Positions 31,835 to 64,000 are shown, counted from the stretch's first letter. The stretch: 64,000 nucleotides of DNA from Candidatus Heimdallarchaeum aukensis (GCA_021513695.1 CP084166.1:576001-640000), one strand, 5' to 3'. The notes: a model not told the origin generated them from the letters alone. Numbers and translations are program-made.

Positions 31835-31983
31835 TCTATCTCTTCCACTACTTTTGATGTTAATTTTTGAATATTATTTTTAAACTTTTTTTTGAACGAA
31901 GTTTCCTAGATAAAAAAATTTAAACATGCAAAGAAGAGAATATATTAGAAACAATTGATTAACTACGATATTGGTTGAACTCC

Positions 31984-32547
31984 ATGACAGAAAAACAGTT
32001 TATTTTCAAAATTGTACTTATTGGTGATGGCGCAGTAGGAAAAACTTCTATTAGAATGCAATATATGGGATACGGATTCAATACCAGTCATCTTATGACC
32101 CTGGGAGCAGATTTTTCATCTATTGATAAAGAAATTATTCCTAACGAAAAATGGAAATTTCAAATTTGGGATTTAGCAGGACAACAAATGTTTGAACAAG
32201 TTCGAGCTCGTTTTTACAAAGGAGCTCAGGGTGCCTTACTTGTCTTTGATATCACTCGCCCTTCCTCTTTTCAAAACCTTCCCATGTGGTTAAACGAATT
32301 GTATAAATTCAACGGATCAGGAGTTGTCCCTGTTGTAGTCCTTGCTAATAAGAGTGATTTGAGAGATAGAAAAAGTGTTAAATTCAAACATGTAGAAAAA
32401 TATGTTTCTGAATTAAATCTGCGTACCCAACGCTATGGTGTAACTAATTATTGTTTAGAAACAAGTGCCAAGACTGGATTAAACATCGATAGAGCTTTTG
32501 AAATTCTCGGGAGAAGCATTCGAGATAAATCAAGCAAAAAAACATAA
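31984..32547 (+). CDS. Ras/Rab-like small GTPase with canonical G1-G5 motifs
   Basis: GDGAVGKTS (G1), TLGADF (G2), WDLAGQQ (G3), NKSD (G4), SAK (G5). No C-terminal Cys lipidation motif. The track ORF starts at TTG 31975; I prefer ATG 31984. Confidence 0.9.
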   Translation: MTEKQFIFKIVLIGDGAVGKTSIRMQYMGYGFNTSHLMTLGADFSSIDKEIIPNEKWKFQIWDLAGQQMFEQVRARFYKGAQGALLVFDITRPSSFQNLPMWLNELYKFNGSGVVPVVVLANKSDLRDRKSVKFKHVEKYVSELNLRTQRYGVTNYCLETSAKTGLNIDRAFEILGRSIRDKSSKKT

Positions 32548-32628: not shown

Positions 32629-33195
32629 ATGCTCACATTTAAGATCCTTTTTATAGGCGATAATAGCGTAGGTAAAACTACTTTATTTAAAAAAATTGTT
32701 CAAAATGAAAAAAATAAAGAAAAGATCCCTTCTCTAAAAGCAGAAATAGTAAAAGTTTATCGTACAATCCAAGGAGAAGAAGTAGCTTTTGAACTATATG
32801 ATTTACCTGCGAGAGAACTTTTATCATCTCCTCAAAGAACAAAATGGTATTTAGGGACTGATGGAGCGTTTATAGTTTTTGACATTACAAAAGCAGAAAC
32901 GTTCAGAAGAGTAACATTCTGGCTAGAACAATTAATAAATTATAACAGAAAAGGGAAGATACCTATAGTATTAGTAGGTAATAAAATAGATATGAGAGAC
33001 AATCCTAATGTGAGAAATAGGACACTAAACCCTATAGATGCTCAAGCTTTCTGTCTTCGACTAAATCGTACATCAGCTAGAGAAGGAATTAATAATGAAT
33101 TCTTCGAAGTCTCAGCAATCTCAGGGAAAGGTTTAACTCAATTACTTGATGCATTAGCTAAAAATATTTATAACCATCACAAAAAAATAAAATAG
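32629..33195 (+). CDS. Divergent small GTPase-like protein with degenerate switch I/II
   Basis: GDNSVGKTT (G1), NKID (G4) and SAI (G5) are retained. G3 reads YDLPARE instead of DxxGQ, and no switch-I Thr is evident. Confidence 0.8.
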   Translation: MLTFKILFIGDNSVGKTTLFKKIVQNEKNKEKIPSLKAEIVKVYRTIQGEEVAFELYDLPARELLSSPQRTKWYLGTDGAFIVFDITKAETFRRVTFWLEQLINYNRKGKIPIVLVGNKIDMRDNPNVRNRTLNPIDAQAFCLRLNRTSAREGINNEFFEVSAISGKGLTQLLDALAKNIYNHHKKIK

Positions 33196-46017: not shown

Positions 46018-48018
46018 ATGAAAAGTTTTTTACCTAAATTTCTGCTTAATGAAATCGATCTTTATTTAGATGATTCTCAGAAGTCTATTTTTGAAGAGAA
46101 GGTTAAAAGTATTGTAAGTAATGCTTCTGACTATGATACGATTTCCAAGGACATTACTGCCTTTCTTTTGAATGAAGATTTTACTGATTTAACGACTTAT
46201 GATCAAATGCTTATTCTTGTTTCAATTCTTCTAAATTACTGGAAAAAGGATTATTCTCTTATTTTTAGCATCTATGACAAATTTCATTCTTTTGATTTAC
46301 CTCTTAGCGTTATGATTTGTTTTCTTCTATTTTTTCAAGAATCTTTTGATTTAACCACTTTTAACCTTTGGAGAGAGAAGATAGAAGAGTACATTACAAA
46401 CATTTCTGATTCTACTGAAAAAGAATTTCTTAAAACTGCTATTGAGCAATTTGCTTCTAAGCTTGAGCAAAGGCCTGAGGTTGGTTATCGTTCTATGAAT
46501 CAGCTTATTCGTTCTCTTGAGGAGAATGAGCATATTTCTTATCGATATCCTTTTGTTTTCGAGGCTTTAGAGATTGATCTTATTCAGTACTCTAACATTT
46601 TAGCTGATGAAGTTTTTTCTGAAATCTGGATTGAGTCCGCTAGAAGAAGAGCTGAAGTTATGGAAAACTATGGCATGTTAGTTCAAGTTAACAGCCTTCT
46701 TGCTAGTATTTTAGTTAAAGAGTATCATCTTGAAAAAGCTAAAGAGAAAATTGAGGAGGGGTTAGAGATTGCTAAGAGGATCAATTCTCCTATTTTAGCT
46801 GCTCAAATTGAGTTGAACAAGGCCTTGTTATTGAAGATGCAAGGTAAGTTGGACGAAGCTTTGAAGTTATATGAAAAAATTGCTAAAGTTAAGAATCTTC
46901 CTCAAACTTTTCAATTGGATATTTACAGTAAAATAGGTGAAATTTATCTCAACAAGGACGAGATAGTTAAAGCTGAAGAATACTACCTTAAAGCTCACGA
47001 GATTAATAAGAAACTTAATTTTATCAATCCTCTTGTTGAAATAGTTATAGGTTACATTAACCTGATTTTAGAGAAAGATAAGGGGGAAGCTTTAGATGAG
47101 GGGTTGAAGATTGCTGAAGAACAGTTTGATTTTTCTTCTATTCCTTACTACTACTTCTACAAAGGTATTTATGAGCAACAAAGGGTTAACTTATCCTTAT
47201 CTATTGAATACCTTGAACAAGCTTTGAACTCTTTTGAGCACCAAAAGAACTTTGAGGGTATTGTTTATACTAACGGTGCATTGGCAGAGTCTTATCTTCA
47301 GATTTACAAGCTTCTTCACGATAACAAATATTCTTCTCGGTTCCTCTATTATATTGACAATCTTATTGAAATACTAAAGGAGTTAAACAATCCTTTGTAT
47401 GTTGAAGCAATAAAGACTAAAGCAGGTTACTATTTAGATAAAGGTTTAATTAAAAATGCTGAAGATCTGTTTATTGATGGAATAGAATTTGCTAGGACAC
47501 GAGGATTAAAAGAGGAAGAAATATATCTTAAGGAATCGCTTACTAACAAGAAGAATTTAACAAAAATAACTTTAGAAGGTACTCAAATACTCTTTAGAAA
47601 AATAAGGATGTTCAGCTTTGGTAAGCATAAAACTGTTCCCACCAAATTATACTTACTTTTAGCCATTAATGAAGCTGGAATTCCTTTAGTTTCTCACTCT
47701 TTTACTGAAGAAGAGATGGTAGATGATCTTTTAGTTTCAGGGTTAATTTCAGCTATAATTAATTTCTCTTCTGAAGTTCTAGGAAAAGGAGGAGAAACCT
47801 TACGATCAATAAATCATGAGGGCAAAGCTGTTATAGTAGAGAAAAAGGACAATGTGATGGGTATCTTAGTTGCTGAAGATGAGAATTTCGAGATGAGACT
47901 GGAACTTAGACAGTTTTTGCAGAAAGCGCTTGATAAGTTAGTTTCTGGACTTCCTATTGTCAGAGAAAACGACAGTGAGATTTTTTCTATTATAGAAGAA
48001 GTTTTTGAGAGAAAATAA
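46018..48018 (+). CDS. TPR-rich scaffold protein with C-terminal longin (Bet5/sybindin-like) / roadblock-type domain
   Basis: 666 aa. Helical/TPR repeats through about residue 520. C-terminal KLYLLLAINEAGIPLVSHSF..DDLLVSGLISAIINFSSEVL..INHEGKAVIVEKKDNVMGILV. Confidence 0.75.
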   Translation: MKSFLPKFLLNEIDLYLDDSQKSIFEEKVKSIVSNASDYDTISKDITAFLLNEDFTDLTTYDQMLILVSILLNYWKKDYSLIFSIYDKFHSFDLPLSVMICFLLFFQESFDLTTFNLWREKIEEYITNISDSTEKEFLKTAIEQFASKLEQRPEVGYRSMNQLIRSLEENEHISYRYPFVFEALEIDLIQYSNILADEVFSEIWIESARRRAEVMENYGMLVQVNSLLASILVKEYHLEKAKEKIEEGLEIAKRINSPILAAQIELNKALLLKMQGKLDEALKLYEKIAKVKNLPQTFQLDIYSKIGEIYLNKDEIVKAEEYYLKAHEINKKLNFINPLVEIVIGYINLILEKDKGEALDEGLKIAEEQFDFSSIPYYYFYKGIYEQQRVNLSLSIEYLEQALNSFEHQKNFEGIVYTNGALAESYLQIYKLLHDNKYSSRFLYYIDNLIEILKELNNPLYVEAIKTKAGYYLDKGLIKNAEDLFIDGIEFARTRGLKEEEIYLKESLTNKKNLTKITLEGTQILFRKIRMFSFGKHKTVPTKLYLLLAINEAGIPLVSHSFTEEEMVDDLLVSGLISAIINFSSEVLGKGGETLRSINHEGKAVIVEKKDNVMGILVAEDENFEMRLELRQFLQKALDKLVSGLPIVRENDSEIFSIIEEVFERK

Positions 48019-52182: not shown

Positions 52183-54399
52183 TTACCCTAATACTAGTTC
52201 TTTTTCTGGTTTTGACTTCTGTTTAGTCTTTTTTGTATCTATTGTTTTTTTCTCTATTTCTGTATCTTTTTTCTTAACTATATCATCTTTCTGTTGATCT
52301 AGGGATGTTTCTACTTTCTCTTTCTTTTCTTTAATATACTTAGCTTCTTCTACACTTACTTCTTCTGTCTCTTTTGTATCATTTTGTTGTTTTTTCTCTT
52401 TGATTTCTTCTTTAGAAGGAACAACTTTTTTTGAAATCCTCTCTTTTCTAGTATCTTTTGCTTCTTGTCTCGTTTCTTTTTTTACCTTTGTCATTATTTT
52501 AGGTTCTGACTTTTGTTCTTTCTCTTTTTCTAGTTCTTCAACTATTTTAATTTGCATTTCTTTTTTGACTCTTTCATATAAATTGACTGACCAAGGTAAA
52601 TTCTCTTGAATTGAAATATTAGAGAGAGAACGAAGAATCTCTATAACAAATTTTTTCTGTGTTTCCTTGTTACTTGAAAGCTTGTTATATGCATTTGACA
52701 AAATAGAATAAACTTTTTCTTCCTCAGTGTAAAGAAACAACATATTTCTGATTACTGTTGAAAGATCTCTATTTTTCTCAAATTGGAAAATGTTCTTGCA
52801 TATTATATCTTCAAATACTTTTTTAAGGGTAGAATCATTTTTTTCTACTGTTTTTAGATCAAAACAAGTTTGAATACTTTCAATAGTTAAGTTTTGTAAA
52901 GAGTTAGAAATGAAACCCTTTTTTTGATTTAATGTTGTGATTACTCCATTTAGGAAGTTTGTGCTCAAGGTTTCTGCGCAAATAGATAACAGTTCATTTT
53001 TTTGATTAGTAAAAACTAATTCACTCTTTAGATTTTGTAAAATGACTACAACTTCTTCTACATCAAAGTCTCCTGAAATCTTGTTTTTTATTGATTCCTC
53101 TGAAAAGAATACTGAATAATAATAGAATTTTTCACTTAACTCTGATAACGTAGGATCTTTACTTTTATTCATATCTTTTATATTCATTGAAAGTGCAACT
53201 AACAACCCTCGAATAATTTTTTCAAAATCTCTTTTTTCTTCTTCTTTTGAAACTTGGAGTTTAAATAACATTATAATTAGTTTATTGATTTGTAAAAGAA
53301 CTAGTTCTTTTTCTTTTAATGTTAAATCTGATAACTCGGTATCTATTGCAATTACTGATTTATCTAATAAAAAGTTTAGATTTTCTCTTGTCTTTGAATT
53401 AAGTTTGCTTTCTTTACCTAAAGCATGAAAATAAGCAAAAGTGCTAATAGCAAATAAATTAATTCTCTCTTCTAGTCTATTTAAAAAAACTTCAAAGTTT
53501 CTAACTATTTTATCTAATTTTTCTTCAGGTTTATCTTGCTGCTCTAAACCTATTTTAAAGCTATTTAGGTAGTCTATTGAACATTTTGAAGAAAAGATGT
53601 ACAATATTGTTGGATAAAAAGTTAGATATTCAAGGAGCTCTTTCTTAATCAAATTAATGTCAAAGAAATAGTTAGATGCTCCCATTAAAAGTGCAAAATC
53701 AGTAAGAAATTGTGCTTTCTCAATAGGTAAAAATTTTAACAAATCGTTTTCTAAATACTCAAATCGAATGAGTTTTCTTCCGCAAGAAGGGCAAGACTCT
53801 TCATTAACTATTTTTTGTCCACATATTGAGCATAAAACAGTCTTTTTTCTTATTTGTATTCCACATTGATTACAATAATTGCTGTCAGGGTGATTAGAAG
53901 AATCACAGTTTAAACATTTAACAACCTTAAAAGAAGGTTTTTCTTTTCTTTCAAAGTATTCTTCTTTTTGTTCTTGTTCGATACTTGTCTCTTTCTGGTG
54001 AATGTCAAATTTTAAACCACAATATTTACAAAAACGAGCGTTTGGAGGATTAACAGTTTGACAGTTTGAACAAATCAAAATGTTTGGTTCACTTTTTTTC
54101 TCTGTAAATCTTGCACCACATTGGGTACAAAATTTTGCATCAATTTTTTGCATAGATCTACAAAAAGGACAAGCTTTTGTCTGTGAGCTACTTTTATTTT
54201 TCTTGTTTCTTTCATTAGCAAAGTTGTATCCACATTTAGAACAAAACAGAGCTTCATTTCGAACATATTTCTGACAAACAGGACATTGTTTAAGAAGTGT
54301 ATATTCAGTAGGAGTATCGATTTTATTTCCACAGTGAGTACAATAAGAAACTTCTTTTTTATTCAGAAGACCACATCTATTGCACATCTTTTGTATCAT
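52183..54399 (-). CDS. Six tandem zinc ribbons, long helical domain and K/E-rich tail
   Basis: Six CxxC-x10/11-CxxC units in residues 6-207, then about 400 aa helical and a C-terminal low-complexity K/E/T region. Confidence 0.75.
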   Translation of the reverse strand: MIQKMCNRCGLLNKKEVSYCTHCGNKIDTPTEYTLLKQCPVCQKYVRNEALFCSKCGYNFANERNKKNKSSSQTKACPFCRSMQKIDAKFCTQCGARFTEKKSEPNILICSNCQTVNPPNARFCKYCGLKFDIHQKETSIEQEQKEEYFERKEKPSFKVVKCLNCDSSNHPDSNYCNQCGIQIRKKTVLCSICGQKIVNEESCPSCGRKLIRFEYLENDLLKFLPIEKAQFLTDFALLMGASNYFFDINLIKKELLEYLTFYPTILYIFSSKCSIDYLNSFKIGLEQQDKPEEKLDKIVRNFEVFLNRLEERINLFAISTFAYFHALGKESKLNSKTRENLNFLLDKSVIAIDTELSDLTLKEKELVLLQINKLIIMLFKLQVSKEEEKRDFEKIIRGLLVALSMNIKDMNKSKDPTLSELSEKFYYYSVFFSEESIKNKISGDFDVEEVVVILQNLKSELVFTNQKNELLSICAETLSTNFLNGVITTLNQKKGFISNSLQNLTIESIQTCFDLKTVEKNDSTLKKVFEDIICKNIFQFEKNRDLSTVIRNMLFLYTEEEKVYSILSNAYNKLSSNKETQKKFVIEILRSLSNISIQENLPWSVNLYERVKKEMQIKIVEELEKEKEQKSEPKIMTKVKKETRQEAKDTRKERISKKVVPSKEEIKEKKQQNDTKETEEVSVEEAKYIKEKKEKVETSLDQQKDDIVKKKDTEIEKKTIDTKKTKQKSKPEKELVLG

Positions 54400-54576: not shown

Positions 54577-56934
54577 ATGAAAAAACGAACGAACATTAAA
54601 AAAATAAATTTCATATTGTTCTTAATTTTTGTTCTTTTTGCAAGTTTTGCAATTGAACATGTTACAATAAAAGCTTCAGATAGCACCAACATAGGAAACC
54701 AGAAACATTTCGTTGATGACAACGCTGAGATCTTAATTATTTCAGATAATGATTTTGTTAAATATGGTTTTCCAGGGGATGGTTCTGTAGATAATCCATA
54801 TATTATCAGCAACCTAGATTTAAATACATCGAAAATGTTTGGTATATTTATTTCTAATGTAAGTTCATATTTTGTAATAGAAAACTGTTTTATTAGATCT
54901 TCTTATTACGGAATATCAGTTAGTGGTCTTGAAGAAAACAGAGCTACTATAAGAAACAATACCTTTTACAAAAGTATTGTAGCTGTTGAAATTAGCCATT
55001 CTCCAGGAATAACAATAATTAACAATAATTTCACTGAAAACAGAGATTATGGGATTTTTATTGAATATTCACCTGATTCCGTTTTGAACTCAAATTACTT
55101 TTTCAAGAATGGCGTGGGTTATTCCGGAAATGGTCTAATTATTAAAGAATCTGAAAATTCAACAATTACCAATAACTCTTTTGTTAGGGATGGTTTAGCT
55201 ATAGAGCCCTCAAATTTTGACATTAAATTGAGCTTATTTAATAATACAGTTAATAATAAACTAATTGGCTACTTCACTAAACAGAACAATATAGTAGTAG
55301 ATCAGTCTATTTATGGTCAAATACTTATCATTGAATGCTCAAATGTTTTTATTTCAAATCAAACGATTTCAGAAACTAATGTTGCTATTTCTGTTTATAA
55401 CTCAAATAGTATACTTATTTCAAATAATACTCTTATGAGCAATGATAAAGGGATTTTCTTATTTCAAACCTATGACTTTGCAATAGAGAGAAACTTTCTA
55501 GAAAATAATTCATTGAATGGATTAGAAATCAACGATTGTACTAAATTCAACATCGTAGATAATGAGATAATCAACAACAGGAAAGGGATTGAGTTATTTA
55601 TTGTCGATGGTTACTCAATTTCTAACATTAATAAGAACACAATTAAGGAGAATTTAGAAGAAGGACTTTCATTAAACACTGTAAATAATTTAAACATAAG
55701 CGAGAATTTCATATACAAAAATTTAGTAGGAATATATGCTTATTATTCTTCTAATGTCTATATAGTTGCTAATTCATTTGAAGTTAATTACCTTTATGCT
55801 ATAACTTTAATGGAAAGTGTAAACAACTTCTATATTTATTATAATCTCTTTGCAACCAATAATCTTGAAAACAAAAACGAATCCCAGTGTTTAGATAATG
55901 GAGTAAATAATCTATGGTACAATCCAGATACAGAAAAAGGAAATTATTGGACAGATCTTAATGACCAAAAGGTTTACTCAATAGGAGGTTCTGCAGGAAG
56001 TATTGATGCATATCCTATGGACCCATTTATAGTCGATTATCCTCCTTTATTTAATTGGCAACTTTACCTGATTCTTCCACTTACTTTAACAACCCTTTTA
56101 TCTGCAGGAGCTTATTTCTTGATCAAAAAAAGAGAAAGAAGAAATTCCAATCTTTCTGATTACAAGAAAGAGCTGAAAAAAGAGAAAGAGTGGGCTAGTG
56201 CTATTACAGAGAAAAAAGATAAAGTAGGTTCTCCAATTAGTAATCTAAACAAACAGATTAGAAAACATTTGGTAAAGAACTTTTCTAAATGGTTTATAGT
56301 AGGTTCAATTTCAGTACTTGTTATTAGCTCTGGATTTTTAGCTTACAAACTTTCGGTCTCTCCTGATAATACTAACCAAAACGGTGCAATGGTAAAATAT
56401 GCCCAAGCTCTTCAACAATCTATTCCTGAAGCTGTCTATATAGAGATTATAGGTAATGCTACATCGGCAATACATGAGAGTTTAATGGATGCACATATTT
56501 ATCGTATAAGCCCCTATCCAGATTTGACTTGGGAAGTTACAGCTAATATTCTCAAATTTGATGATGAAGGAAGAGCTTACCTTGAAGAAATTTCTTTCAC
56601 TCTCGACAGTTATGTAATTGATGAAATCGGACAAAATCTCTTCGAATCTCTCAACAACACCGTGATTTTAGGACATTACGGAGAAAAACCCTACAACGAT
56701 GAAGATACTTACAACATAAATATTAAATGGGGTTTAAGATTTTTCTTGGAAAATACTACAATAATTGAGTTGATTGTACTAGAGAATGGTCTTGTAGTAT
56801 ATGCAAAAGGCTACTGGGTAACTTTTTCTAATTATTCAACAAACATGATCGGAGCTTTAATTATTGGACCAGAATCTGCTTTTGACAATACTATTCGAAT
56901 TCTAAGAGAGATTTTTGAGGAAAATATAAATTAG
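54577..56934 (+). CDS. Envelope beta-helix (NosD/PbH1-like) protein with two TM helices and an extra C-terminal domain
   Basis: 785 aa. Signal/anchor, beta-helix repeats, NLWYNPDTEKGNYWTD. TM at about residue 500, a second TM at about residue 575, then roughly 200 aa unassigned. Confidence 0.8.
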   Translation: MKKRTNIKKINFILFLIFVLFASFAIEHVTIKASDSTNIGNQKHFVDDNAEILIISDNDFVKYGFPGDGSVDNPYIISNLDLNTSKMFGIFISNVSSYFVIENCFIRSSYYGISVSGLEENRATIRNNTFYKSIVAVEISHSPGITIINNNFTENRDYGIFIEYSPDSVLNSNYFFKNGVGYSGNGLIIKESENSTITNNSFVRDGLAIEPSNFDIKLSLFNNTVNNKLIGYFTKQNNIVVDQSIYGQILIIECSNVFISNQTISETNVAISVYNSNSILISNNTLMSNDKGIFLFQTYDFAIERNFLENNSLNGLEINDCTKFNIVDNEIINNRKGIELFIVDGYSISNINKNTIKENLEEGLSLNTVNNLNISENFIYKNLVGIYAYYSSNVYIVANSFEVNYLYAITLMESVNNFYIYYNLFATNNLENKNESQCLDNGVNNLWYNPDTEKGNYWTDLNDQKVYSIGGSAGSIDAYPMDPFIVDYPPLFNWQLYLILPLTLTTLLSAGAYFLIKKRERRNSNLSDYKKELKKEKEWASAITEKKDKVGSPISNLNKQIRKHLVKNFSKWFIVGSISVLVISSGFLAYKLSVSPDNTNQNGAMVKYAQALQQSIPEAVYIEIIGNATSAIHESLMDAHIYRISPYPDLTWEVTANILKFDDEGRAYLEEISFTLDSYVIDEIGQNLFESLNNTVILGHYGEKPYNDEDTYNINIKWGLRFFLENTTIIELIVLENGLVVYAKGYWVTFSNYSTNMIGALIIGPESAFDNTIRILREIFEENIN

Positions 56935-56946
56935 AAGGTGCGTATA

Positions 56947-57423
56947 ATGAATATTGTGGCAAAAGAGAAACAAGATATCATCGCTGAACTTAACGGAACA
57001 GCGCTACGTATTTTCCTTTTTCTTTTAAAAAACAATGAAATAGGAATACGAGACGCTCAAAGAAAATTAGGCCTTAAGAGTGCTAGCCATGTACAGTACC
57101 ATCTACAAAGATTTGAGCATTTAGGTATAGTGGAAAAGATGCCTAATAGCAGATATTGTCTTACAGAAAAATATTCTGAACTTCGAAGCATAAAACTAGG
57201 TCTTTTAACTGAAATATACATCTACAAAGGTGTTATAATTCCTTCTATTGGTTTTTTTTCTGGTGCTCTATTTACAACATTAATTATTTCTTTAATTTTT
57301 TACTTTCAAGTAAACAAGCTTTCAGGATTTCTAATTAGTATAATCGGAGTCTTTGCTACAGCAGTATATTTTCTAATCCAAGCTATTCAAATACTTAAAA
57401 ACTTTAGAGAGAATGAAAAATAA
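56947..57423 (+). CDS. Winged-helix protein with two C-terminal TM helices
   Basis: ALRIFLFLLKNNEIGIRDAQRKLGLKSASHVQYHLQRFEHLGIVEK, then two hydrophobic helices. AAGGTG ribosome-binding site 7 nt upstream of ATG 56947; the track starts at GTG 56938. Confidence 0.65.
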   Translation: MNIVAKEKQDIIAELNGTALRIFLFLLKNNEIGIRDAQRKLGLKSASHVQYHLQRFEHLGIVEKMPNSRYCLTEKYSELRSIKLGLLTEIYIYKGVIIPSIGFFSGALFTTLIISLIFYFQVNKLSGFLISIIGVFATAVYFLIQAIQILKNFRENEK

Positions 57424-57493: not shown

Positions 57494-59419
57494 TTAATTA
57501 ATATATGTTAGAATGAAAGAATCTTGTATAAGATCTTCTATTTTCTTTTCTTCTATTTTGTCAAAAAACTTACCTGTTTTTGGAATGGAAGTTAGTTTAT
57601 GCCATAATTCCTCGAATTTTCCAATGTTATTAACAAAGTTATCTATCTTTTTATTGGCAGTGAAAGAAGAGCCTTTGAACACATAACAAAAGATTATTCC
57701 TTCCTTGTTTTTGAACGTCAAAAAGTAGTCATGATATTCTACTTGCTTGATTGAACCTTCTGTTGCTAAAACCTCTTTTAATATGTTATTTAAAGCAGAA
57801 AGGAATCCTGAAAATAGAATACTGTCATATTTCTCCTCACTAAAGTTATAACTGTAAAGTGGTATTCCATGTTCATTTAGAATAAGCAACATAACTGGAG
57901 TGTCTTTTTCTATTACTTCGAGTTCGTAGCTAACCCTTTGTATCATCTGCGAAACTAAAGTGTCAACTTGTGTTTTTTCTATTCTTTTCTTTATACTCAC
58001 ATCAGAATTAAGAATTGCTTTCCATTTATTATGTTCTCTTACAATTGAATCATATTCTAAACTTATTTTTTGAGCTAAATTGTCTAATCCTTGAGAAAAA
58101 GCTATCTCCTGCGCTTTTAATAAATCCTCTTGAGCTTCATCAAGATTTAGTTGAATTAGATTAATCTTTCCTTTTAACCAGTAAGCTTCTGCTAAGAGAG
58201 ACCTAGATATTTGCATTTCTGCAATTTTTAATAGCTGAATGTTTATATCCTTTAGTTCATCTATAATTTCGCTTTCATTAAAAATAGTAAGCTCTTCTAG
58301 CAATATTTCAGTAAGGTTTAACATCGCATGAATATTTATCTCATTGTAAATTTCATTCGTTCTAATAATAGAATGAAGAAGAGAGATAGCTTTCGCTTGT
58401 GAAACAAATCTTTTTCGCTCTTTTAATACACTTGCTTCTGTTAGTTTAGCATAAAAACTCAAAAACTTGTTTTTTTCCTTTCTAGATAATTTTTTTAATT
58501 CTTTCAAGTATTCCTGAGCTTTCGATATTTGCCCTAGTAAAATGTGTAACTTAGTCAAATAATAGGTGGATTCAGCTATAATATAGTTAAATTTAACTAA
58601 TTTTGCATAATTTATACTTTTATCGAAAAAATCTAAAGCTAGATTAAACTCTCCTTTACTGAAATAAACGATGCCTATATTATTGAAAACTTGTGAAATT
58701 CCAAAAATATTTTCTTTTTCTTGATAGTTAATTAAAGCATCGTTATATAGTTCAACCGCTTTATTTAGATTTCCTTTTAATCTATAAATCTCACCTATAG
58801 AAATTAAAGTATTGTTAATTATTTGCTTCGAGTTTAAAAATTCACCATAAACAAGACACTCTTCAAAACAAGCAAGGCTTTGATTTAGATTTCCTTTTTG
58901 GGCATTTATTTTTCCTTCTCTATATTTTAAAAAAGCATAAATTTTGGTCTCATTCTTCTCTTTAACTAATTGTAAAGATTTTTTTACTAAATTCAGTGCT
59001 CGTGGTAGATCTTTATAGATAACCAGTAAAGCTTGGCAGAGATTGAAAATGGCATTAACTTCATTTTTATCTTTCTTAATTACCTTTGATTTTGTTTTTT
59101 TGAAGTGTAATAAAATTTCTTCACTTTTTTTGTTTTGTGATAAAAGGAGAGAAAAAACCTCTATCAAATAATAGTAAACATAGAAATCATTAGCCATAAG
59201 TTCTTTCTCATTTTCAAGGTAACTTAAAAGTTGAAGGCCAAATACTTTGCAATCCTCTACTTTACCAAACTCATAAGCTGTTTCAACTTTGTGATTTAAT
59301 AAACTTCTTTTTTCAATTGAAGGTTGTTTTCTCTCTTCTTCATGGTTATTTATTTGGGTAATAATTTCAGAATATTTGGTTGAATCTAGAATTTTTTCGT
59401 TTTCTATGAAATCTATCAC
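57494..59419 (-). CDS. TPR-rich scaffold protein with C-terminal longin (Bet5/sybindin-like) / roadblock-type domain (paralog of 46018..48018)
   Basis: 641 aa. TPR repeats (IGEIYRLKGNLNKAVELY, IGIVYFSKGEFNLALDFF ...). C-terminal VMLLILNEHGIPLYSYNFSEEKYDSILFSGFLSALNNILKEVL..VEYHDYFLTFKNKEGIIFCYVF. Confidence 0.75.
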   Translation of the reverse strand: MIDFIENEKILDSTKYSEIITQINNHEEERKQPSIEKRSLLNHKVETAYEFGKVEDCKVFGLQLLSYLENEKELMANDFYVYYYLIEVFSLLLSQNKKSEEILLHFKKTKSKVIKKDKNEVNAIFNLCQALLVIYKDLPRALNLVKKSLQLVKEKNETKIYAFLKYREGKINAQKGNLNQSLACFEECLVYGEFLNSKQIINNTLISIGEIYRLKGNLNKAVELYNDALINYQEKENIFGISQVFNNIGIVYFSKGEFNLALDFFDKSINYAKLVKFNYIIAESTYYLTKLHILLGQISKAQEYLKELKKLSRKEKNKFLSFYAKLTEASVLKERKRFVSQAKAISLLHSIIRTNEIYNEINIHAMLNLTEILLEELTIFNESEIIDELKDINIQLLKIAEMQISRSLLAEAYWLKGKINLIQLNLDEAQEDLLKAQEIAFSQGLDNLAQKISLEYDSIVREHNKWKAILNSDVSIKKRIEKTQVDTLVSQMIQRVSYELEVIEKDTPVMLLILNEHGIPLYSYNFSEEKYDSILFSGFLSALNNILKEVLATEGSIKQVEYHDYFLTFKNKEGIIFCYVFKGSSFTANKKIDNFVNNIGKFEELWHKLTSIPKTGKFFDKIEEKKIEDLIQDSFILTYIN

Positions 59420-59679: not shown

Positions 59680-62600
59680 ATGAAAAAGAAGACAATAACT
59701 TTGATCTTTATACTGTTAATAATGATTCAAGTATCTTCTTTATTTATAGAAACAGAAGCTTCAAATTACATATATACTCAACTTAAGTGGAGAAAAATAT
59801 CAAGCTACAATTATGGAGAAGCTTCTTTCTTTGACTATGATAAAGACGGAAAATTAGATGTTTTTTTTAAAACAGCAGAAGGCATAGAAATTTACAATCA
59901 TAAAGGAAATCTATTAAAGAAAATTCATGGTTATTTCCAATATACCCCCACAATTACAGACCTAGAAAAAGATGGAGATTTAGAGTTTATTACTCAAAAC
60001 TACTATGGAATAGAAATATACGATTCTACCGGACAATTAAAAGAACAGAACTTAACTTTATATAGTGCCTACGCGAGAATTGTGGTTGCAGACATTAACA
60101 ATGACGGGATACAAGAAATAATTTATCATTCCACAGGTGATATAATATGCTTCAACAATCAATTAGAAGAAATTTGGAGCTATAAATTTGAAAATCCAGA
60201 CTATTATGGAAGTATTTATGATCTCGTAGTTAATTCAGATGCAGATTCTGAAAAAGAAATTGTAGTTTATTATGACAACTCGATTTATCTATTTAATACA
60301 GATGGTGAAAAAAAATGGTCAAAATCCTTACCTTCTGAAGGAATTGTCGCTTATGATTTTAATGATGATGGTATAGATGAAATAATTGGAACCAAATCAT
60401 CAGATTACACAATTTACTCTTTAAACAGTCAAGATGGTTCTGAATTGTGGATTAATGAAATGGCTGTAAACTTAAACCCTTTGCCTATTGACCTTGATCA
60501 AGATGGAATTGTAGAATTAATAGCTCTTTCTACTGATAATGACAAGTCTGAATCTTATATTAATTATATCAATGGAAAAACAGGAGAAGTAGAAGAACAG
60601 GTAACTGTAGATCAAAGATTCTTTACTAATTCATATTACGAATTCTTTCCTGAAACTCCAGCTGTAGGAGATTTTGATGGTAATGGGGTGTTGGACCTTA
60701 TCTTTCTTGCTTTTTCATATGCTTATAGTGTTGCTACACTGATTTATTCTGCAGATGGGTATAGAATAGCAGAATTTGACGAGGGTTCACTAACAACTCC
60801 AACAATTGTTGACCTGGATGGTAATGGAAGAACAGAAATAATGATACGTGATTATTCAGGAATATTCTGCTATGAGGTTACTGGATCAACTTCTGGAAAA
60901 AATATCTGGTATAAAGAAAGAGGAAATATAGCTAATACAATGGTAGTAGATACAGATGGAGACTTGCTAGATGATATAAGCGAAGAATTTTATGGTTCAG
61001 ATAAAGGAAAAGAAGATACTGACGGTGATACCCTTTTAGACGGAATAGAGATAATTGGTTCTGGTTCTTCACCTATAAAACAAGACACTGATGGAGATGG
61101 TTTAACAGATGATGTTGAATATGAATTAGGTTTCAACCCAAGATTAAATGACTTAGATTTGGATTATGATGATGATAGTTTAACCAATTATGATGAAGTA
61201 TTTGTTTATTCAACAAATCCTATGTCTAATGATACAGATAACGATTTACTACTTGATAATGAAGAAATTAATACTTATGGAACGTCTCCAACAAACAACG
61301 ACACAGATGCAGATGGTGTTATTGATGGAGAAGAAGTACATACTTACGGAACATCACCATTAGATAATGATTCAGATGACGATGGAATGGAAGACGGATA
61401 TGAAGTCTTATACAACTTAGATCCTCTTGTAAATGATAGTTATGGAGATATTGACTCAGATGGTTTGTTAAATATTGAAGAGTTTACATACAATTCAAAC
61501 AGTTCAAATGTAGACACAGATAATGACACAATTTCAGATGGTGATGAAGTTCATACTTATGGAACGTCTCCAACAAACAATGATTCTGATGGAGATAATC
61601 TCACAGATAATGAAGAAATTTATACTTATGGAACGTCTCCAACAAACAACGACACAGACGCAGATATTATGTGGGATGGTTGGGAGATTGAATATGGATT
61701 TAATCCCTTAATCGACGATGGAGATGAAGATTTAGATTCTGACGGTCTTTCCAATGCTGAAGAATTTATTTATTCAACAGAGCCTAACAATACTGACTCA
61801 GATTCTGACCAACTCCTTGATGGAGAAGAAGTACATACTTATGGAACAGACCCTGCTAAAATTGATAGTGACGAGGATGAGCTTACTGATTATGAAGAAG
61901 TTATAGTTTATACAACAAATCCTGTGTCTAACGATACTGATAATGACTTAATGGGTGATTATTATGAGGTTAATCATGGTTTAAACCCCCTTGTAAACGA
62001 TACTTTAGGCGATCTTGACAATGATACTCTAACAAATTATGAAGAATTTTTACTTGGTACTTTACCTAATAACAATGATACTGATGGAGATGGAATGAGT
62101 GATGGTTTTGAGTATCAATATGGACTAATTTTAACTGACAATGATTCTTCATTGGACAAGGATAAGGATGGTTTATCTAACCTTGACGAATTTTTACATA
62201 ATACCAACCCTCTCTCTAATGATACTGATGGAGATGGAATGTTTGATGGTTTTGAAGTGCAATATAACCTTAACCCAAATTTAAATGATTCTGCAGGAGA
62301 CCCTGATGCTGATGGAATATCAAATATTGATGAAATGAAATATGGTTCATCACCAATTAGCTCTGATACAGACAGTGACCGTCTAACCGATCCTGAAGAG
62401 ATATTCATCTATCACTCTAATCCTGCAATAAAAGATACAGATGGAGATGGTTTAGAAGATGGAGAAGAAGTACTTGATTTTGGTACAAGCCCAACTAACG
62501 AGGATACAGACGGGGACACTCTTAGTGACTATGTAGAGATTTATGTTTTCCTCACTGACCCAACAGACCCTGATACAGATAACGATGGAATGAATGATGG

Positions 62601-63624
62601 AGAAGAAATAGAAATAGGAAAAGATCCGCTTACTAAAAACTACTACACACCACTTTCTAAACTTCTACTTATATTGCCTATTGTTGGAGGAATAGTCCTC
62701 TTTGGTGGCTTAATATATGGAGCTATGATTTTTTCTAAGAAAATTAAAGAGAGAAAGCGTAAAGAGATAGTAGAAAAAGAGATTCTGTTGCTTAAATCTG
62801 AGCATCTAAATTTAGATGACAGGATAAACATTCTAGCAAAAAAAGAATCTATTTTTACTGATAAAATCACTTTTCGCTCTTTGGTTGATGTGACTAAACT
62901 CTATTTCAACTTTCTTGCAAAATTTGACGATAAATACACTTTAATTACTAAATTCAAAGAAGTTGGTAATCTTCAGGAATGGAATGAAGTGAAGGAGAAA
63001 GCTTTTTCATCCTTTGAACGGCTATTAAATACAATAAAAGACAATCTCCATTCCTTTGACATAAACGACATAATAAAGAATCAGTATCCTTCACTAATAA
63101 ATCTTGAAAAGAAAGGCGAACTAACAGCAAAAGAACTCTTACAAGTTCATTCTGATGGAAAAGATTTACACCTCTATGTTGAAGAATTCAAAAAATATCT
63201 AAAGATTTTACTAAGAAGATTGAACGCTTTAGAATCTCTCTTTTCAACTAAAGATGAGCTTTTGGATATTGTTGCTTCAAGTTCAATTATTACTGCTCTA
63301 AAAGAAAAAGATTCATTAATTACTCAACTAGAGAGGAACGAGATCAAATATGTTCGAGAAAAAATAAATGCAGAAAATCATTGTATTTACTGTGGTATTC
63401 AACTACATGATGATGCTAAAACATGTTCAAACTGCCAACGCACTCTTCCTTCTTGCCCTATTTGTAAAAATACTTTCAGATTCTTTGATGAAGTCTATAC
63501 TTGTCCCGAATGCTTTTCAAAGATTCATAAAGATGAACTGGAGATTTGGTTAGGAGATAAAGGAACTTGTCCTAAATGTAACAAATCTATTACTTTATAC
63601 AACTTAGATGTTGAAATAATCTAA
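59680..63624 (+). CDS. Giant type-I membrane receptor: FG-GAP beta-propeller, about 24 TSP3-like Ca-binding repeats, TM, helical cytoplasmic region, zinc ribbon and RING-like finger
   Basis: 1314 aa. Signal peptide. Seven DxDxDG-type FG-GAP blades (DYDKDGKLDV ... DLDGNGRTEI). Repeated DTDGDG/DSDxD motifs. TM LLLILPIVGGIVLFGGLIYGAMIF. C-terminal CxxC clusters. Confidence 0.85.
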   Translation: MKKKTITLIFILLIMIQVSSLFIETEASNYIYTQLKWRKISSYNYGEASFFDYDKDGKLDVFFKTAEGIEIYNHKGNLLKKIHGYFQYTPTITDLEKDGDLEFITQNYYGIEIYDSTGQLKEQNLTLYSAYARIVVADINNDGIQEIIYHSTGDIICFNNQLEEIWSYKFENPDYYGSIYDLVVNSDADSEKEIVVYYDNSIYLFNTDGEKKWSKSLPSEGIVAYDFNDDGIDEIIGTKSSDYTIYSLNSQDGSELWINEMAVNLNPLPIDLDQDGIVELIALSTDNDKSESYINYINGKTGEVEEQVTVDQRFFTNSYYEFFPETPAVGDFDGNGVLDLIFLAFSYAYSVATLIYSADGYRIAEFDEGSLTTPTIVDLDGNGRTEIMIRDYSGIFCYEVTGSTSGKNIWYKERGNIANTMVVDTDGDLLDDISEEFYGSDKGKEDTDGDTLLDGIEIIGSGSSPIKQDTDGDGLTDDVEYELGFNPRLNDLDLDYDDDSLTNYDEVFVYSTNPMSNDTDNDLLLDNEEINTYGTSPTNNDTDADGVIDGEEVHTYGTSPLDNDSDDDGMEDGYEVLYNLDPLVNDSYGDIDSDGLLNIEEFTYNSNSSNVDTDNDTISDGDEVHTYGTSPTNNDSDGDNLTDNEEIYTYGTSPTNNDTDADIMWDGWEIEYGFNPLIDDGDEDLDSDGLSNAEEFIYSTEPNNTDSDSDQLLDGEEVHTYGTDPAKIDSDEDELTDYEEVIVYTTNPVSNDTDNDLMGDYYEVNHGLNPLVNDTLGDLDNDTLTNYEEFLLGTLPNNNDTDGDGMSDGFEYQYGLILTDNDSSLDKDKDGLSNLDEFLHNTNPLSNDTDGDGMFDGFEVQYNLNPNLNDSAGDPDADGISNIDEMKYGSSPISSDTDSDRLTDPEEIFIYHSNPAIKDTDGDGLEDGEEVLDFGTSPTNEDTDGDTLSDYVEIYVFLTDPTDPDTDNDGMNDGEEIEIGKDPLTKNYYTPLSKLLLILPIVGGIVLFGGLIYGAMIFSKKIKERKRKEIVEKEILLLKSEHLNLDDRINILAKKESIFTDKITFRSLVDVTKLYFNFLAKFDDKYTLITKFKEVGNLQEWNEVKEKAFSSFERLLNTIKDNLHSFDINDIIKNQYPSLINLEKKGELTAKELLQVHSDGKDLHLYVEEFKKYLKILLRRLNALESLFSTKDELLDIVASSSIITALKEKDSLITQLERNEIKYVREKINAENHCIYCGIQLHDDAKTCSNCQRTLPSCPICKNTFRFFDEVYTCPECFSKIHKDELEIWLGDKGTCPKCNKSITLYNLDVEII
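61261..61665 (+). repeat. Near-identical intragenic DNA repeats in the TSP3 region
   Basis: A 54-nt unit (GAAGAAATT.ATACTTATGGAACGTCTCCAACAAACAACGACACAGA.GCAGAT) occurs at 61261 and 61612 with 2 mismatches. A 29-nt core copy lies at about 61553. Confidence 0.7.
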
Positions 63625-63722: not shown

Positions 63723-64000
63723 ATGCCTATCAAATTCGATTTTTCTGCTTATTATGCGTTTAAAGAATTAATAAAAAAGAAAGTAGGAAAAGAAAAAATC
63801 AACAAAGAGTTAGAAGAATTATTTTCGATAAAAGGATATGAGCTATTATTTGAACGAGAGTATAACAAAGAATTTTTCTCAAATGTATTTAAATTTGTCC
63901 TATATCCTGAATTAGCTGAAGTTACAGAGAAAAATCAACTAAAAAGATATGAAAGGTACATTAATCATTTTAATAATATTATTTCTATTCAAGAACAAAT
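63723..64000 (+). CDS. Partial ORF running off the window end (hypothetical)
   Basis: ATG at 63723. I translated 92 codons without a stop (MPIKFDFSAYYAFKELIKKK...). No domain recognised. Confidence 0.35.
   Translation, partial: MPIKFDFSAYYAFKELIKKKVGKEKINKELEELFSIKGYELLFEREYNKEFFSNVFKFVLYPELAEVTEKNQLKRYERYINHFNNIISIQEQ

What the first reader, a model, noticed from the sequence alone, without database searches (positions are those of the whole stretch)
59680..63624. Integrin-alpha-like propeller plus thrombospondin-type-3 repeats on a single-pass receptor with a zinc-finger tail
Seen in sequence: the order is a signal peptide, then seven FG-GAP-type Ca-binding blades (nt ~59812-60875; DYDKDGKLDV, DLEKDGDLEF, DINNDGIQEI, DFNDDGIDEI, DLDQDGIVEL, DFDGNGVLDL, DLDGNGRTEI). 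Next come about 24 Asp-rich DxDxDGxxDxxE repeats (nt ~60943-62634), one TM helix (nt ~62655-62735), a helical cytoplasmic region of about 300 aa and two Cys-rich fingers. Established knowledge: a seven-bladed FG-GAP propeller is the integrin-alpha head, and DxDxDG repeats are thrombospondin type 3 / calcium-binding repeats. Both occur in prokaryotic surface proteins. Combining them with a cytoplasmic signalling tail is a eukaryote-like receptor layout. Inference: this is a candidate adhesion or signalling receptor.
Basis: partly seen in the sequence, partly recalled or inferred. Interest (0 to 1): 0.65.

Follow-up and report, generated by a model that had tools for sequence, protein, structure and literature searches.

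The report
Asgard surface receptor with RING tail
This is a real 1314-residue membrane protein of a Heimdall-group Asgard archaeon that combines a calcium-binding propeller head on a long calcium-repeat stalk outside the cell with a ubiquitin-ligase-type RING zinc module inside, so it resembles eukaryotic transmembrane RING ligases in layout rather than an integrin.

Summary
The ORF 59680-63624 (+) is real and under purifying selection in every part (dN/dS 0.10-0.22 against a 76 % ortholog). Two corrections apply.

1. The propeller has eight blades, not seven. Its best structural matches are the 8-bladed Bap1, BamB and YxaL, and no integrin alpha appears in the top 50.
2. The "two fingers" are a zinc ribbon plus a RING-H2-like cross-brace domain.

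That 66-aa module defines a large family (929 clusters at E<=1e-3). Of the 14 members that carry a taxon name, 13 are Asgard. The module sits at the C-terminus of soluble, multipass and type-I receptor-like proteins with unrelated ectodomains. The positions that contact E2 in canonical RINGs are almost invariant in this family. The closest solved relatives are RING-H2 ligases and the C-terminal zinc domains of IFT-A and GATOR2 subunits.

Best reading: a Ca2+-dependent adhesion or ligand-binding receptor whose tail recruits the Asgard ubiquitin machinery, or alternatively acts as a zinc-mediated assembly module. It is not an integrin. The architecture is confined to a few Heimdallarchaeaceae, and I found no description of it in the searchable literature.

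The parts
59680..63624 (+). Complete ORF, 1314 aa plus stop codon
   Evidence: Orthologs P0002 (76 %, 1313 aa) and P0003 (44 %, 1321 aa) are found. dN/dS is 0.145 overall.
59680..59760 (+). Signal peptide (aa 1-27: MKKK, a hydrophobic core, then ETEA|S)
   Evidence: Kyte-Doolittle peak at aa 3-27. The cleavage site is inferred from the small residues at -3/-1. No dedicated predictor was available.
59761..60948 (+). Eight-bladed FG-GAP-type beta-propeller head (aa 28-423). Ca-loop motifs lie at aa 52, 95, 138, 226, 271, 331 and 378, with a degenerate loop at aa 185.
   Evidence: Pfam FG-GAP_3 E=9.3e-25 and FG-GAP E=4.1e-11. Eight repeats. AF2 model with pLDDT 83.9 and pTM 0.83. Foldseek best hits are Bap1 6mlt, BamB and YxaL.
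60949..62649 (+). Stalk of 24 TSP3-type Ca-binding repeats (DxDxDGxxDxxE, period 22-26 aa, aa 424-990). It is 20.5 % Asp and has no Cys.
   Evidence: Pfam TSP3_bac E=2.9e-23. NCBIfam partial matches to CglD and MtsD, far below their cut-offs. Repeat table.
62659..62736 (+). Single transmembrane helix (aa ~994-1019), followed by the basic stop-transfer KKIKERKRK (aa 1020-1028)
   Evidence: Hydropathy peak of 2.5 and the flanking charges.
62740..63369 (+). Cytoplasmic all-helical region (aa 1021-1230), modelled as tandem three-helix bundles
63382..63435 (+). C4 zinc ribbon (C1235, C1238, C1249, C1252)
   Evidence: Pfam DZR scores 30.6-32.3 bits, above the 27.3 cut-off, on the isolated module. 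All four Cys are invariant in 30 family members.
63454..63579 (+). RING-H2-like cross-brace domain (C1259, C1262, C1275, C1278, H1283, E1286 in place of the family's second His, C1297, C1300). The E2-contact-type residues I1261, W1290 and P1298 are present.
   Evidence: zf-RING_2 scores 22.7-23.9 bits, below the 27.3 cut-off, for the query, but matches 29 of 30 family members. PDB hits are EL5 at 2.4e-4 and WDR19 at 2e-4. The model superposes on EL5 RING-H2 at 2.2 A.
57494..59419 (-). Divergent neighbour: a 641-aa TPR protein with a C-terminal longin-like domain. It is a possible but unproven cytoplasmic partner.
   Evidence: TPR families. Weak Fuz_longin_1 hit, E=0.004. A gene of this kind lies 1-2 genes upstream of the receptor in L001, L002 and L004. 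Paralogs are common.

Best explanation
The gene encodes a type-I, single-pass cell-surface receptor or adhesin of a Heimdallarchaeaceae (Asgard) archaeon.

Outside the cell:
- An eight-bladed, Ca2+-binding FG-GAP propeller forms the binding head. It is the fastest-evolving part of the protein.
- A roughly 570-residue stalk of 24 Ca2+-loaded TSP3-type repeats holds the head away from the membrane.

Inside the cell:
- About 210 residues of three-helix bundles lead to a C-terminal zinc ribbon plus RING-H2-like domain.
- That module belongs to a large, mostly Asgard family. The family keeps the hydrophobic, Trp and Pro positions that correspond to the E2-contact surface of canonical RINGs.

Proposed mechanism (inferred, not shown): engagement or clustering of the ectodomain brings the RING tails together. 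The tails then recruit an Asgard E2~ubiquitin and ubiquitylate the receptor itself or nearby membrane-proximal proteins. This would couple events at the surface to the Asgard ubiquitin/ESCRT or proteasome machinery. In function it would be an archaeal counterpart of eukaryotic transmembrane RING ligases such as PA-TM-RING and ZNRF3/RNF43, built from prokaryotic ectodomain parts.
For: Shown by tools:
- ORF and topology.
- FG-GAP and TSP3_bac score above Pfam cut-offs.
- The head model is eight-bladed, and its best hits include the secreted Ca-binding biofilm adhesin Bap1.
- The tail model has pLDDT 94.3.
- The RING part superposes on EL5 RING-H2 (2.2 A), Rad18 RING (1.8 A) and Prp19 U-box (1.7 A), each with probability 1.0.
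- The family profile hits RNF4, RNF24, RNF126, Arkadia, EL5 and ZNRF3.
- The query module alone hits EL5 at 2.4e-4.
- 929 clusters carry the module. It ends a median of 13 aa from the C-terminus.
- In 137 modules, V/I follows the first Cys pair in 134, the helix Trp is present in 130, and Pro lies in the last knuckle in 135.
- 15 of 141 representatives have a signal peptide, a long ectodomain, a TM and the module. The ectodomains I scanned include beta-helix/DUF2341, Ig-like and SBP_bac_5.
- Named members are Heimdall-, Hod-, Loki-, Thor- and Freyarchaeota.
- Purifying selection acts on the module (dN/dS 0.10), and the head evolves faster (0.22).

From the literature:
- Asgard genomes encode the whole ubiquitylation cascade plus ESCRT (PMC9192718).
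- A Helarchaeial E1/E2/RING-E3 cascade works in vitro (bioRxiv 10.1101/2023.07.25.550441).
- A Caldiarchaeum cascade also works in vitro (PMC5654768).
Against: - No biochemical evidence exists for this protein or for its module family.
- The query and its 76 % ortholog carry Glu in place of the second His zinc ligand. Only 3 of 137 modules do so. This may weaken one zinc site.
- The query scores below Pfam's RING_2 cut-off (22.7-23.9 against 27.3 bits).
- The residue after the last Cys is Asn rather than the Lys/Arg 'linchpin' seen in 69 of 137 members.
- The best single-domain PDB match of the family profile is the IFT144/WDR19 C-terminal domain. To my knowledge that domain is structural, not catalytic.
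- No E1, E2 or ubiquitin gene lies in the 64-kb window.
- The ligand of the propeller is unknown.
Confidence: 0.45

Rival explanations
1. A structural adhesin or envelope protein. The ectodomain mediates Ca2+-dependent attachment to cells, partners or surfaces. The cytoplasmic helical bundles and the ZnR-RING module serve only as a zinc-stabilised oligomerisation or anchoring device, without ubiquitin-ligase activity. To my knowledge this is how the RING-like C-termini of GATOR2 and IFT-A subunits work, holding those complexes together.
For: - The family profile's strongest single-domain PDB match is WDR19/IFT144 (E=1.6e-8 over the whole module), followed by MIOS, WDR24, WDR59 and IFT122.
- Foldseek of the whole tail ranks IFT-A and GATOR2 chains first.
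- The query lineage has lost one canonical zinc ligand.
- The best hit for the head is the biofilm adhesin Bap1.
- Many of the TSP3-stalk hits have tails under 60 aa, so they look like plain anchored surface proteins.
Against: The I/V, Trp and Pro positions that match the E2-contact surface of canonical RINGs are nearly invariant across 137 modules. In the WDR19 alignment the His ligands and one RING Cys are missing. Such conservation is not needed for a purely structural zinc knot. The module is also found on 64 of 141 representatives with no predicted TM segment, where there is nothing to anchor.
Confidence: 0.3
2. An integrin-like bidirectional adhesion receptor. The propeller would be an integrin-alpha-type head, and the tail would transmit conformational signals to the cytoskeleton.
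For: FG-GAP repeats with DxDxDG Ca loops and type-I topology are present. Papers citing Liu et al. 2021 state that integrin repeats were identified in Asgard archaea (PMC9197732, PMC9258230).
Against: - The propeller has eight blades rather than seven.
- No integrin alpha appears among the top 50 structural matches.
- The closest sequence relatives of the head carry bacterial FG-GAP and BamB-type annotations.
- Pfam detects no thigh or calf domains.
- There is no GFFKR motif.
- No VWA or beta-I partner was found among the neighbours I scanned.
Confidence: 0.08
3. A membrane-tethered nucleic-acid-binding or transcription factor. The zinc ribbons would bind DNA or RNA after the tail is released by regulated proteolysis.
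For: Zinc ribbons (DZR) are frequent in nucleic-acid-binding proteins. Weak hits to the TFE and TFIIB zinc-ribbon families appear.
Against: The module matches RING-H2 ligases far better than nucleic-acid-binding fingers. The family consensus shows no basic patch typical of DNA binding. No site-2-protease-type feature was noted.
Confidence: 0.04

Closest known systems
Eukaryotic transmembrane RING-H2 ligases (PA-TM-RING family such as RNF13, and ZNRF3/RNF43)
   Same: The layout is the same: signal peptide, extracellular or luminal binding domain, one TM helix, and a cytoplasmic RING-H2-type domain near the C-terminus. ZNRF3 and RNF13 RING domains are among the profile's PDB hits.
   Different: The ectodomain is unrelated, being an FG-GAP propeller plus TSP3 stalk rather than a PA domain. 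A zinc ribbon precedes the RING. The ligand pattern is C4H2C2, with CPxC replacing CxH and 4 residues before the first His. The query has Glu at ligand 6. This is analogy of layout, not shown orthology.
C-terminal zinc-ribbon/RING-like domains of IFT-A (IFT144/WDR19, IFT122) and GATOR2/SEACAT (MIOS, WDR24, WDR59)
   Same: These are the best solved relatives of the whole ZnR+RING module by sequence profile (WDR19 E=1.6e-8 over 77 of 80 positions; query alone E=2e-4). They are also the best Foldseek matches of the whole helical-plus-zinc tail.
   Different: To my knowledge those proteins are cytosolic, with WD40 propellers, an alpha-solenoid and the zinc domain all on one side of the membrane. 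In the WDR19 alignment the His ligands and one RING Cys are missing. Here the propeller is of the FG-GAP type and extracellular. Global TM-scores are low (~0.24).
Vibrio cholerae Bap1 and other 8-bladed propellers (BamB, YxaL)
   Same: These are the best structural matches of the head (6mlt E=1.8e-12; BamB TM ~0.6). To my knowledge Bap1 also uses FG-GAP/VCBS-type Ca loops. Bap1 has a surface-adhesion role.
   Different: To my knowledge those proteins are secreted or lipid-anchored bacterial proteins. None has a TSP3 stalk, a TM helix or a RING tail. Sequence identity is 12-17 %.
Integrin alpha subunits
   Same: FG-GAP repeats with DxDxDG calcium loops, and type-I membrane topology.
   Different: From my own knowledge, integrin alpha has seven blades, Ig-like thigh and calf legs, a short tail with GFFKR and an obligate beta subunit. 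None of these is found here.
Bacterial TSP3-repeat surface proteins (Myxococcus CglD, MtsD) and eukaryotic thrombospondin/COMP type-3 repeats
   Same: The DxDxDGxxDxxE calcium-binding repeat is shared. TSP3_bac scores above its cut-off, and there are partial NCBIfam matches to CglD (1.2e-27) and MtsD.
   Different: Scores lie far below the equivalog cut-offs (96 against 400 bits), so this is not CglD or MtsD. The repeats contain no Cys, and there is no C-terminal lectin-like domain as in thrombospondins (from my own knowledge). Here the repeats act as a membrane-proximal stalk.
Small soluble RING E3s of archaeal ubiquitin operons (Caldiarchaeum; Helarchaeia)
   Same: They are RING-type domains in archaea that encode E1, E2 and ubiquitin. 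Activity has been shown in vitro for those proteins (PMC5654768; bioRxiv 10.1101/2023.07.25.550441).
   Different: Those are small cytosolic proteins encoded next to ubiquitin genes. This one is a 1314-aa membrane receptor with no ubiquitin-system gene in the window. I did not make a direct sequence comparison because those sequences were not at hand.

Membership tests
Integrin alpha | FG-GAP repeats with Ca-binding DxDxDG loops | tested here: met
   Pfam FG-GAP E=4.1e-11 and FG-GAP_3 E=9.3e-25 on aa 1-427. Seven canonical loops are present.
Integrin alpha | Seven-bladed propeller | tested here: not met
   There are eight sequence repeats. The AF2 model has about 33 strands. Top structural hits are 8-bladed Bap1, BamB, YxaL and tetrathionate hydrolase, and no integrin appears in the top 50.
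Integrin alpha | Thigh/calf Ig-like leg domains and the membrane-proximal GFFKR tail motif | tested here: not met
   No Ig-like family appears in the Pfam scan. The leg is made of TSP3 repeats. The sequence after the TM is KKIKERKRK.
Integrin alpha | Heterodimer with a beta subunit (beta-I/VWA domain) | not testable with these tools
   No VWA-type gene was found among the window ORFs I scanned. The rest of the genome is not available.
Bacterial TSP3 repeat (PF18884) / thrombospondin type-3 | Tandem DxDxDGxxDxxE calcium-binding motifs scoring above the Pfam gathering cut-off | tested here: met
   TSP3_bac scores 81.8 bits against a cut-off of 25. There are 24 repeats with a period of 22-26 aa.
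Eukaryotic thrombospondin signature domain | Disulfide-bonded Cys in each type-3 repeat and a C-terminal L-lectin-like domain | tested here: not met
   There is no Cys between aa 398 and 1234. The repeats are followed directly by the TM helix.
RING-H2 ubiquitin ligase domain | Eight zinc ligands in cross-brace spacing | tested here: inconclusive
   The family pattern is C-x2-C-x12-C-x2-C-x4-H-x2-H-x10-C-x2-C. His occupies ligand 6 in 133 of 137 modules. The query has Glu1286 there, giving 7 standard ligands.
RING-H2 ubiquitin ligase domain | Profile match above the curated cut-off | tested here: inconclusive
   The query scores 22.7-23.9 bits on zf-RING_2 against a cut-off of 27.3. 29 of 30 family members match, with a best E of 5.3e-9. 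P0142 scores 28.7 bits, above the cut-off. PDB profile hits to RNF4, RNF24, RNF126 and Arkadia range from 2.6e-9 to 2.6e-7.
RING-H2 ubiquitin ligase domain | RING beta-beta-alpha cross-brace fold | tested here: met
   The AF2 tail model has pLDDT >=92 over the module. Local superpositions give EL5 RING-H2 at 2.2 A over 49 columns (TMt 0.75), Rad18 at 1.8 A and Prp19 U-box at 1.7 A. This is a predicted structure, not a solved one.
RING-H2 ubiquitin ligase domain | E2-contact residues (hydrophobic residue in Zn loop 1, Trp on the helix, Pro in Zn loop 2) | tested here: met
   I1261, W1290 and P1298 are present in the query. Across 137 modules the counts are 134, 130 and 135. The role of these positions is taken from established RING-E2 structures (my own knowledge).
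RING-H2 ubiquitin ligase domain | E2-dependent ubiquitin transfer activity | not testable with these tools
   This needs biochemistry with cognate Asgard E1, E2 and ubiquitin.
IFT-A / GATOR2 C-terminal zinc domain | ZnR + RING-like module preceded by an alpha-solenoid and WD40 propellers in a cytosolic protein | tested here: not met
   Module similarity is met. The rest of the architecture is not. The propeller is of the FG-GAP type and extracellular, and it is separated from the tail by a TM helix.
CglD / MtsD (NCBIfam equivalogs) | Whole-protein score above the equivalog cut-off | tested here: not met
   The scores are 96.2 bits against a cut-off of 400 for CglD and 71.1 against 800 for MtsD. 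Only the TSP3 repeats match.

The most novel reading that the evidence does not exclude
The ZnR+RING module is an Asgard-wide ubiquitin-ligase output domain that is bolted onto many kinds of surface receptors: beta-helix, Ig-like, solute-binding, and this propeller-on-TSP3-stalk type. On this reading, ligand-coupled receptor ubiquitylation feeding the Asgard ubiquitin-ESCRT system existed before eukaryotes. The same module would also be the archaeal relative of the C-terminal zinc domains of the eukaryotic IFT-A, GATOR2 and SEACAT proteins.
Probability: 0.2. Interest if true: 0.85.

Novelty: new variant of a known kind. Interest (0 to 1): 0.58.

Why it matters
Every individual domain is known, but two things are not in the literature I could search.

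1. A large, mostly Asgard family carries a C-terminal zinc-ribbon+RING-H2 module. About half of its representatives have predicted TM segments, and roughly one in ten looks like a type-I receptor.
2. This particular fusion joins that module to a propeller head and a TSP3 stalk.

If the tail is an active E3, these proteins would be the first candidates for receptor-coupled ubiquitylation in the closest archaeal relatives of eukaryotes. That gives a concrete, testable entry point into when ubiquitin-dependent sorting of surface proteins arose.

The sequence and fold link of the module to the IFT-A and GATOR2 C-termini is a further lead on the origin of those eukaryotic zinc domains. If the tail is only structural, the protein is still a well-defined Ca2+-dependent Heimdallarchaeial adhesin, which may be relevant to cell-cell contact in these syntrophic archaea.

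Tried and rejected
- The word-indexed homolog search with the tail alone found nothing, not even the 76 % ortholog. I treat this as a tool limitation. The exhaustive profile search replaced it.
No genome-wide taxonomic scan was therefore made. Taxa come from 30 cluster look-ups, of which 14 carried a name.
- The conserved-neighbour idea (TPR + longin-like gene upstream) was checked in L001, L002 and L004. Adjacency recurs. However, the family is paralogous: a second window copy at 46018-48018 is closer to the L001/L004 genes than the adjacent copy is. I therefore do not count it as evidence of a functional pair.
- Rfam and tRNA scans of the window found nothing.
- tblastn of the tail against phage records found nothing.
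- Literature searches for Asgard plus thrombospondin, GATOR2, protocoatomer or transmembrane RING returned nothing relevant. Liu et al. 2021 (PMC11165668) is not held. Its 2020 preprint text does not mention integrin or RING.
- I considered and rejected an assembly artefact from repeats. There is only one 69-bp x1.9 tandem repeat.
- I also considered and rejected a pseudogene. dN/dS is 0.10-0.22.

Full report
**1. Observation**

The window has about 30 % G+C and no tRNA or Rfam hits. The stated coordinates hold one uninterrupted ORF, 59680-63624 (+), of 1314 aa.

A hydropathy scan finds only three hydrophobic peaks:
- An N-terminal segment at aa 3-27. It follows MKKK and precedes ETEA|S, as a Sec signal peptide would.
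- A weaker peak at aa 337-355, inside the propeller. I read this as buried blade strands, not a TM helix.
- A strong peak at aa ~994-1019, followed immediately by KKIKERKRK.

The ectodomain (aa 28-988) has a net charge of -191 and 18 N-X-S/T sequons, against one sequon in the tail. It has only two Cys (157, 397). The other ten Cys are all in the last 80 residues. No dedicated signal-peptide or topology predictor was available, so this rests on hydropathy and charge.

**2. Ectodomain**

Pfam gives FG-GAP_3 (E=9.3e-25) and FG-GAP (E=4.1e-11) on aa 1-427. It gives TSP3_bac (E=2.9e-23) on the whole protein. All are above the curated cut-offs.

The repeat register, however, shows an eighth unit with a degenerate loop (NSDADSEKEI, aa ~185) between the third and fourth.

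An AlphaFold2 model of aa 28-430 was built on 31 sequences. It has pLDDT 83.9 and pTM 0.83, and is all-beta with about 33 strands. Foldseek against the PDB ranks V. cholerae Bap1 first (E=1.8e-12). BamB, YxaL and tetrathionate hydrolase follow, all eight-bladed propellers. No integrin alpha chain appears among the first 50 hits. Outside its own small family, the head's sequence relatives are 21-28 % identical proteins with FG-GAP, PQQ and BamB-type annotations, and the named ones are bacterial.

The stalk has exactly 24 repeats of 22-26 aa (aa 424-990). It is 20.5 % Asp and contains no Cys. NCBIfam matches to the Myxococcus adhesion proteins CglD and MtsD cover only these repeats and lie far below the equivalog cut-offs. 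At the DNA level only one 69-bp x1.9 repeat survives. The array is therefore old and is not an assembly artefact.

**3. Who has it**

- The nearest database entry is a partial "hypothetical protein" of a Candidatus Heimdallarchaeaceae MAG at 99 % identity.
- Full-length orthologs are P0002 (76 %) and P0003 (44 %).
- A fourth copy, in L004, is split by a frameshift.
- The window also carries tandem Ras/Arf-family GTPases, as expected for an Asgard genome.
- Many of the named TSP3-rich hits are Heimdall-, Kari-, Hod- or Thorarchaeota proteins. These have other heads, a TSP3 stalk and a C-terminal hydrophobic segment.
- 51 of the best 120 hits have a hydrophobic segment after the last repeat, mostly with tails under 60 aa. 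Only the query's own family has a RING-type tail.

The stalk-plus-anchor design is thus common among these hits. The tail is what is special.

**4. The tail**

A profile of three tails was searched against 1.84 billion representatives. It found 929 proteins at E<=1e-3. Only P0001, P0003 and P0121 match over the whole 295 positions. All the others match only the last ~75 residues.

That module is a 66-aa unit: C-x2-C-G-x10-C-P-x-C-x6-C-x-[VI]-C-x12-C-P-x-C-x4-H-x2-H-L-x-E-W-x-K-x-K-G-x-C-P-x-C. It ends a median of 13 aa from the C-terminus.

Pfam, member by member, gives zf-RING_2 in 29 of 30, DZR in 28 of 30 and Prok-RING_1 in 26 of 30. The query's own module passes the DZR cut-off but stays under the RING_2 cut-off.

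Against PDB sequences, the RING half of the profile hits RING-H2 ligases. These include RNF4, RNF24, RNF126, Arkadia, EL5, RLIM, synoviolin, AMFR, RNF38, ZNRF3 and Rbx2. The whole module hits the C-terminal domains of IFT144/WDR19 (E=1.6e-8, the best single-domain match), IFT122, MIOS, WDR24 and WDR59. The query alone still finds WDR19 (2e-4) and EL5 (2.4e-4).

In the EL5 alignment, C1278 takes the ligand-3 position, H1283 ligand 5 and E1286 ligand 6. C1275 supplies the fourth ligand from a CPxC knuckle in place of CxH.

The AF2 model of the whole tail is very confident, with pLDDT 94.3 and pTM 0.85. Seven helices are followed by short strands and a helix at tail residues 264-273, the beta-beta-alpha core of a RING.
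- Foldseek ranks IFT-A and GATOR2 chains first for the whole tail, with E from 1.3e-4 and low global TM.
- Foldseek superposes the RING part on EL5 (2.2 A), Rad18 (1.8 A) and Prp19 U-box (1.7 A).

**5. Is the RING likely to be active?**

Across 137 modules:
- The hydrophobic residue after the first RING Cys is V or I in 134.
- The helix Trp is present in 130.
- The Pro of the last knuckle is present in 135.

By established RING-E2 structures (my own knowledge), these positions form the E2-binding surface. Ligand 5 is His in all 137. Ligand 6 is His in 133, Glu in 3 (the query's lineage) and Asp in 1.

The Glu variant is conserved between the query and its 76 % ortholog. The module there has dN/dS of 0.10, as low as any part of the protein. 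It is therefore a maintained state, not decay, although its effect on zinc binding is unknown.

Asgard genomes encode complete ubiquitylation cascades and ESCRT (PMC9192718). A Helarchaeial E1/E2/RING-E3 cascade has been reconstituted (bioRxiv 10.1101/2023.07.25.550441), as has a Caldiarchaeum one (PMC5654768). No ubiquitin-system gene lies in this window.

**6. Family context**

Of 141 representatives with a RING-type motif:

| Class | Count |
|---|---|
| No predicted TM | 64 |
| Two TM | 23 |
| One TM, internal or near the module | 17 |
| Three or more TM | 16 |
| Type-I receptor-like (signal peptide, >=200-aa ectodomain, TM, module) | 15 |
| One N-terminal hydrophobic segment only | 6 |

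The ectodomains of the receptor-like members I scanned include DUF2341 + NosD/beta-helix, Ig-like repeats and an SBP_bac_5 solute-binding domain. Others have no Pfam match.

Of the 14 members that carry a taxon name, 13 are Asgard (Heimdall-, Hod-, Loki-, Thor- and Freyarchaeota). One is labelled Bathyarchaeia. NCBI already calls one of them a "RING finger domain-containing protein".

**7. Mechanism**

Shown: the architecture, the topology (by hydropathy and charge), the fold assignments and the conservation pattern.

Inferred:
- The propeller is the binding head. It evolves fastest, with dN/dS 0.22 against 0.11 for the stalk.
- The TSP3 array is a Ca2+-stiffened spacer.
- The helical bundles position or dimerise the tails.
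- The RING module recruits E2~Ub to modify the receptor or its neighbours.

The main rival is that the zinc module is a structural assembly device, as I understand its IFT-A and GATOR2 relatives to be. I put the E3-receptor reading at about 0.45 and the structural-adhesin reading at about 0.3. The integrin-like reading is below 0.1.

**8. Comparison and novelty**

It is not an integrin. The blade number, legs and tail motif fail, and the partner could not be tested. It is not CglD or MtsD either.

In layout it resembles PA-TM-RING and ZNRF3-type ligases. Its module is closest to RING-H2 domains and to the IFT-A and GATOR2 C-termini.

Papers citing Liu et al. 2021 state that integrin-type repeats were identified in Asgard archaea (PMC9197732, PMC9258230). 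I found no description of TSP3-stalked Asgard surface proteins, of membrane-anchored Asgard RING proteins, or of the link to the IFT-A and GATOR2 zinc domains. The library does not hold most subscription papers.

I rate it a new variant of known kinds. Its interest lies mainly in the module family rather than in this one protein.

Noticed in passing
window 31975-32547 and 32629-33195 (+): Two tandem small GTPases of the Ras/Arf/Roc type (Ras E=4e-40 and 6e-26). This is a hallmark of Asgard genomes and fits the Heimdallarchaeaceae assignment.
   Followed up: no
window 57494-59419 (-) and 46018-48018 (+); L001 5739-7748; L002 657-2570; L004 2599-4608: A paralogous family of ~640-670-aa proteins with a TPR (MalT-like) region and a conserved ~125-aa C-terminal domain. 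That domain gives weak hits to the first longin domain of FUZ/MON1/HPS1 (E=0.004 and 0.03, below the cut-off). One copy lies 1-2 genes upstream of the receptor gene in every locus examined, but paralogy makes the linkage uncertain.
   Followed up: partly
window 52183-54399 (-): A 738-aa protein. Its first ~210 residues are a string of double zinc ribbons (DZR E=9e-23, 4 stretches). A long helical region and a Lys/Glu-rich C-terminus follow. It has no RING-type module and no TM.
   Followed up: no
window 54577-56934 (+) and 56938-57423 (+): A NosD/right-handed beta-helix surface protein (785 aa) with two internal hydrophobic segments. A 161-aa winged-helix (LexA-like, weak) protein with a hydrophobic C-terminal half follows 4 bp later. 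A 162-aa gene sits in the same position in L002.
   Followed up: no
window 4117-7960 (-) and 8149-8847 (+): Type I restriction-modification genes (HsdR 1051 aa, HsdS fragment) lie next to an integrase-core (rve_3) fragment. This may be a mobile or defence islet.
   Followed up: no
L004 5767-7860 and 8001-9788: The ortholog in another Heimdallarchaeaceae MAG is called as two genes. A frame change falls inside a TSP3 repeat, and the same DGWEVSYSLN peptide is readable in two frames. This is either a true frameshift or a repeat-collapse assembly error.
   Followed up: partly
window 63723-64000 (+): This is the start of a DUF5700-family gene that runs off the window. The same gene follows the receptor in L002 and L003, so local synteny (wHTH - TPR - receptor - DUF5700) is kept at 76 % identity.
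   Followed up: partly
P0209 (701 aa, Thorarchaeota) and P0137 / P0213 / P0254 (Freyarchaeum and Lokiarchaeia): Other members of the module family fuse the same ZnR+RING tail to different ectodomains. P0209 has an SBP_bac_5 solute-binding ectodomain. P0137 and P0213 have DUF2341 + beta-helix ectodomains. P0254 is annotated as a beta-helix repeat protein. This suggests a general sensor-with-RING-output design.
   Followed up: partly
window 61535-61666: This is the only DNA-level tandem repeat inside the gene (69 bp x 1.9, 82 % match). It spans TSP3 repeats 9-10 and marks the most recent duplication in the array.
   Followed up: no
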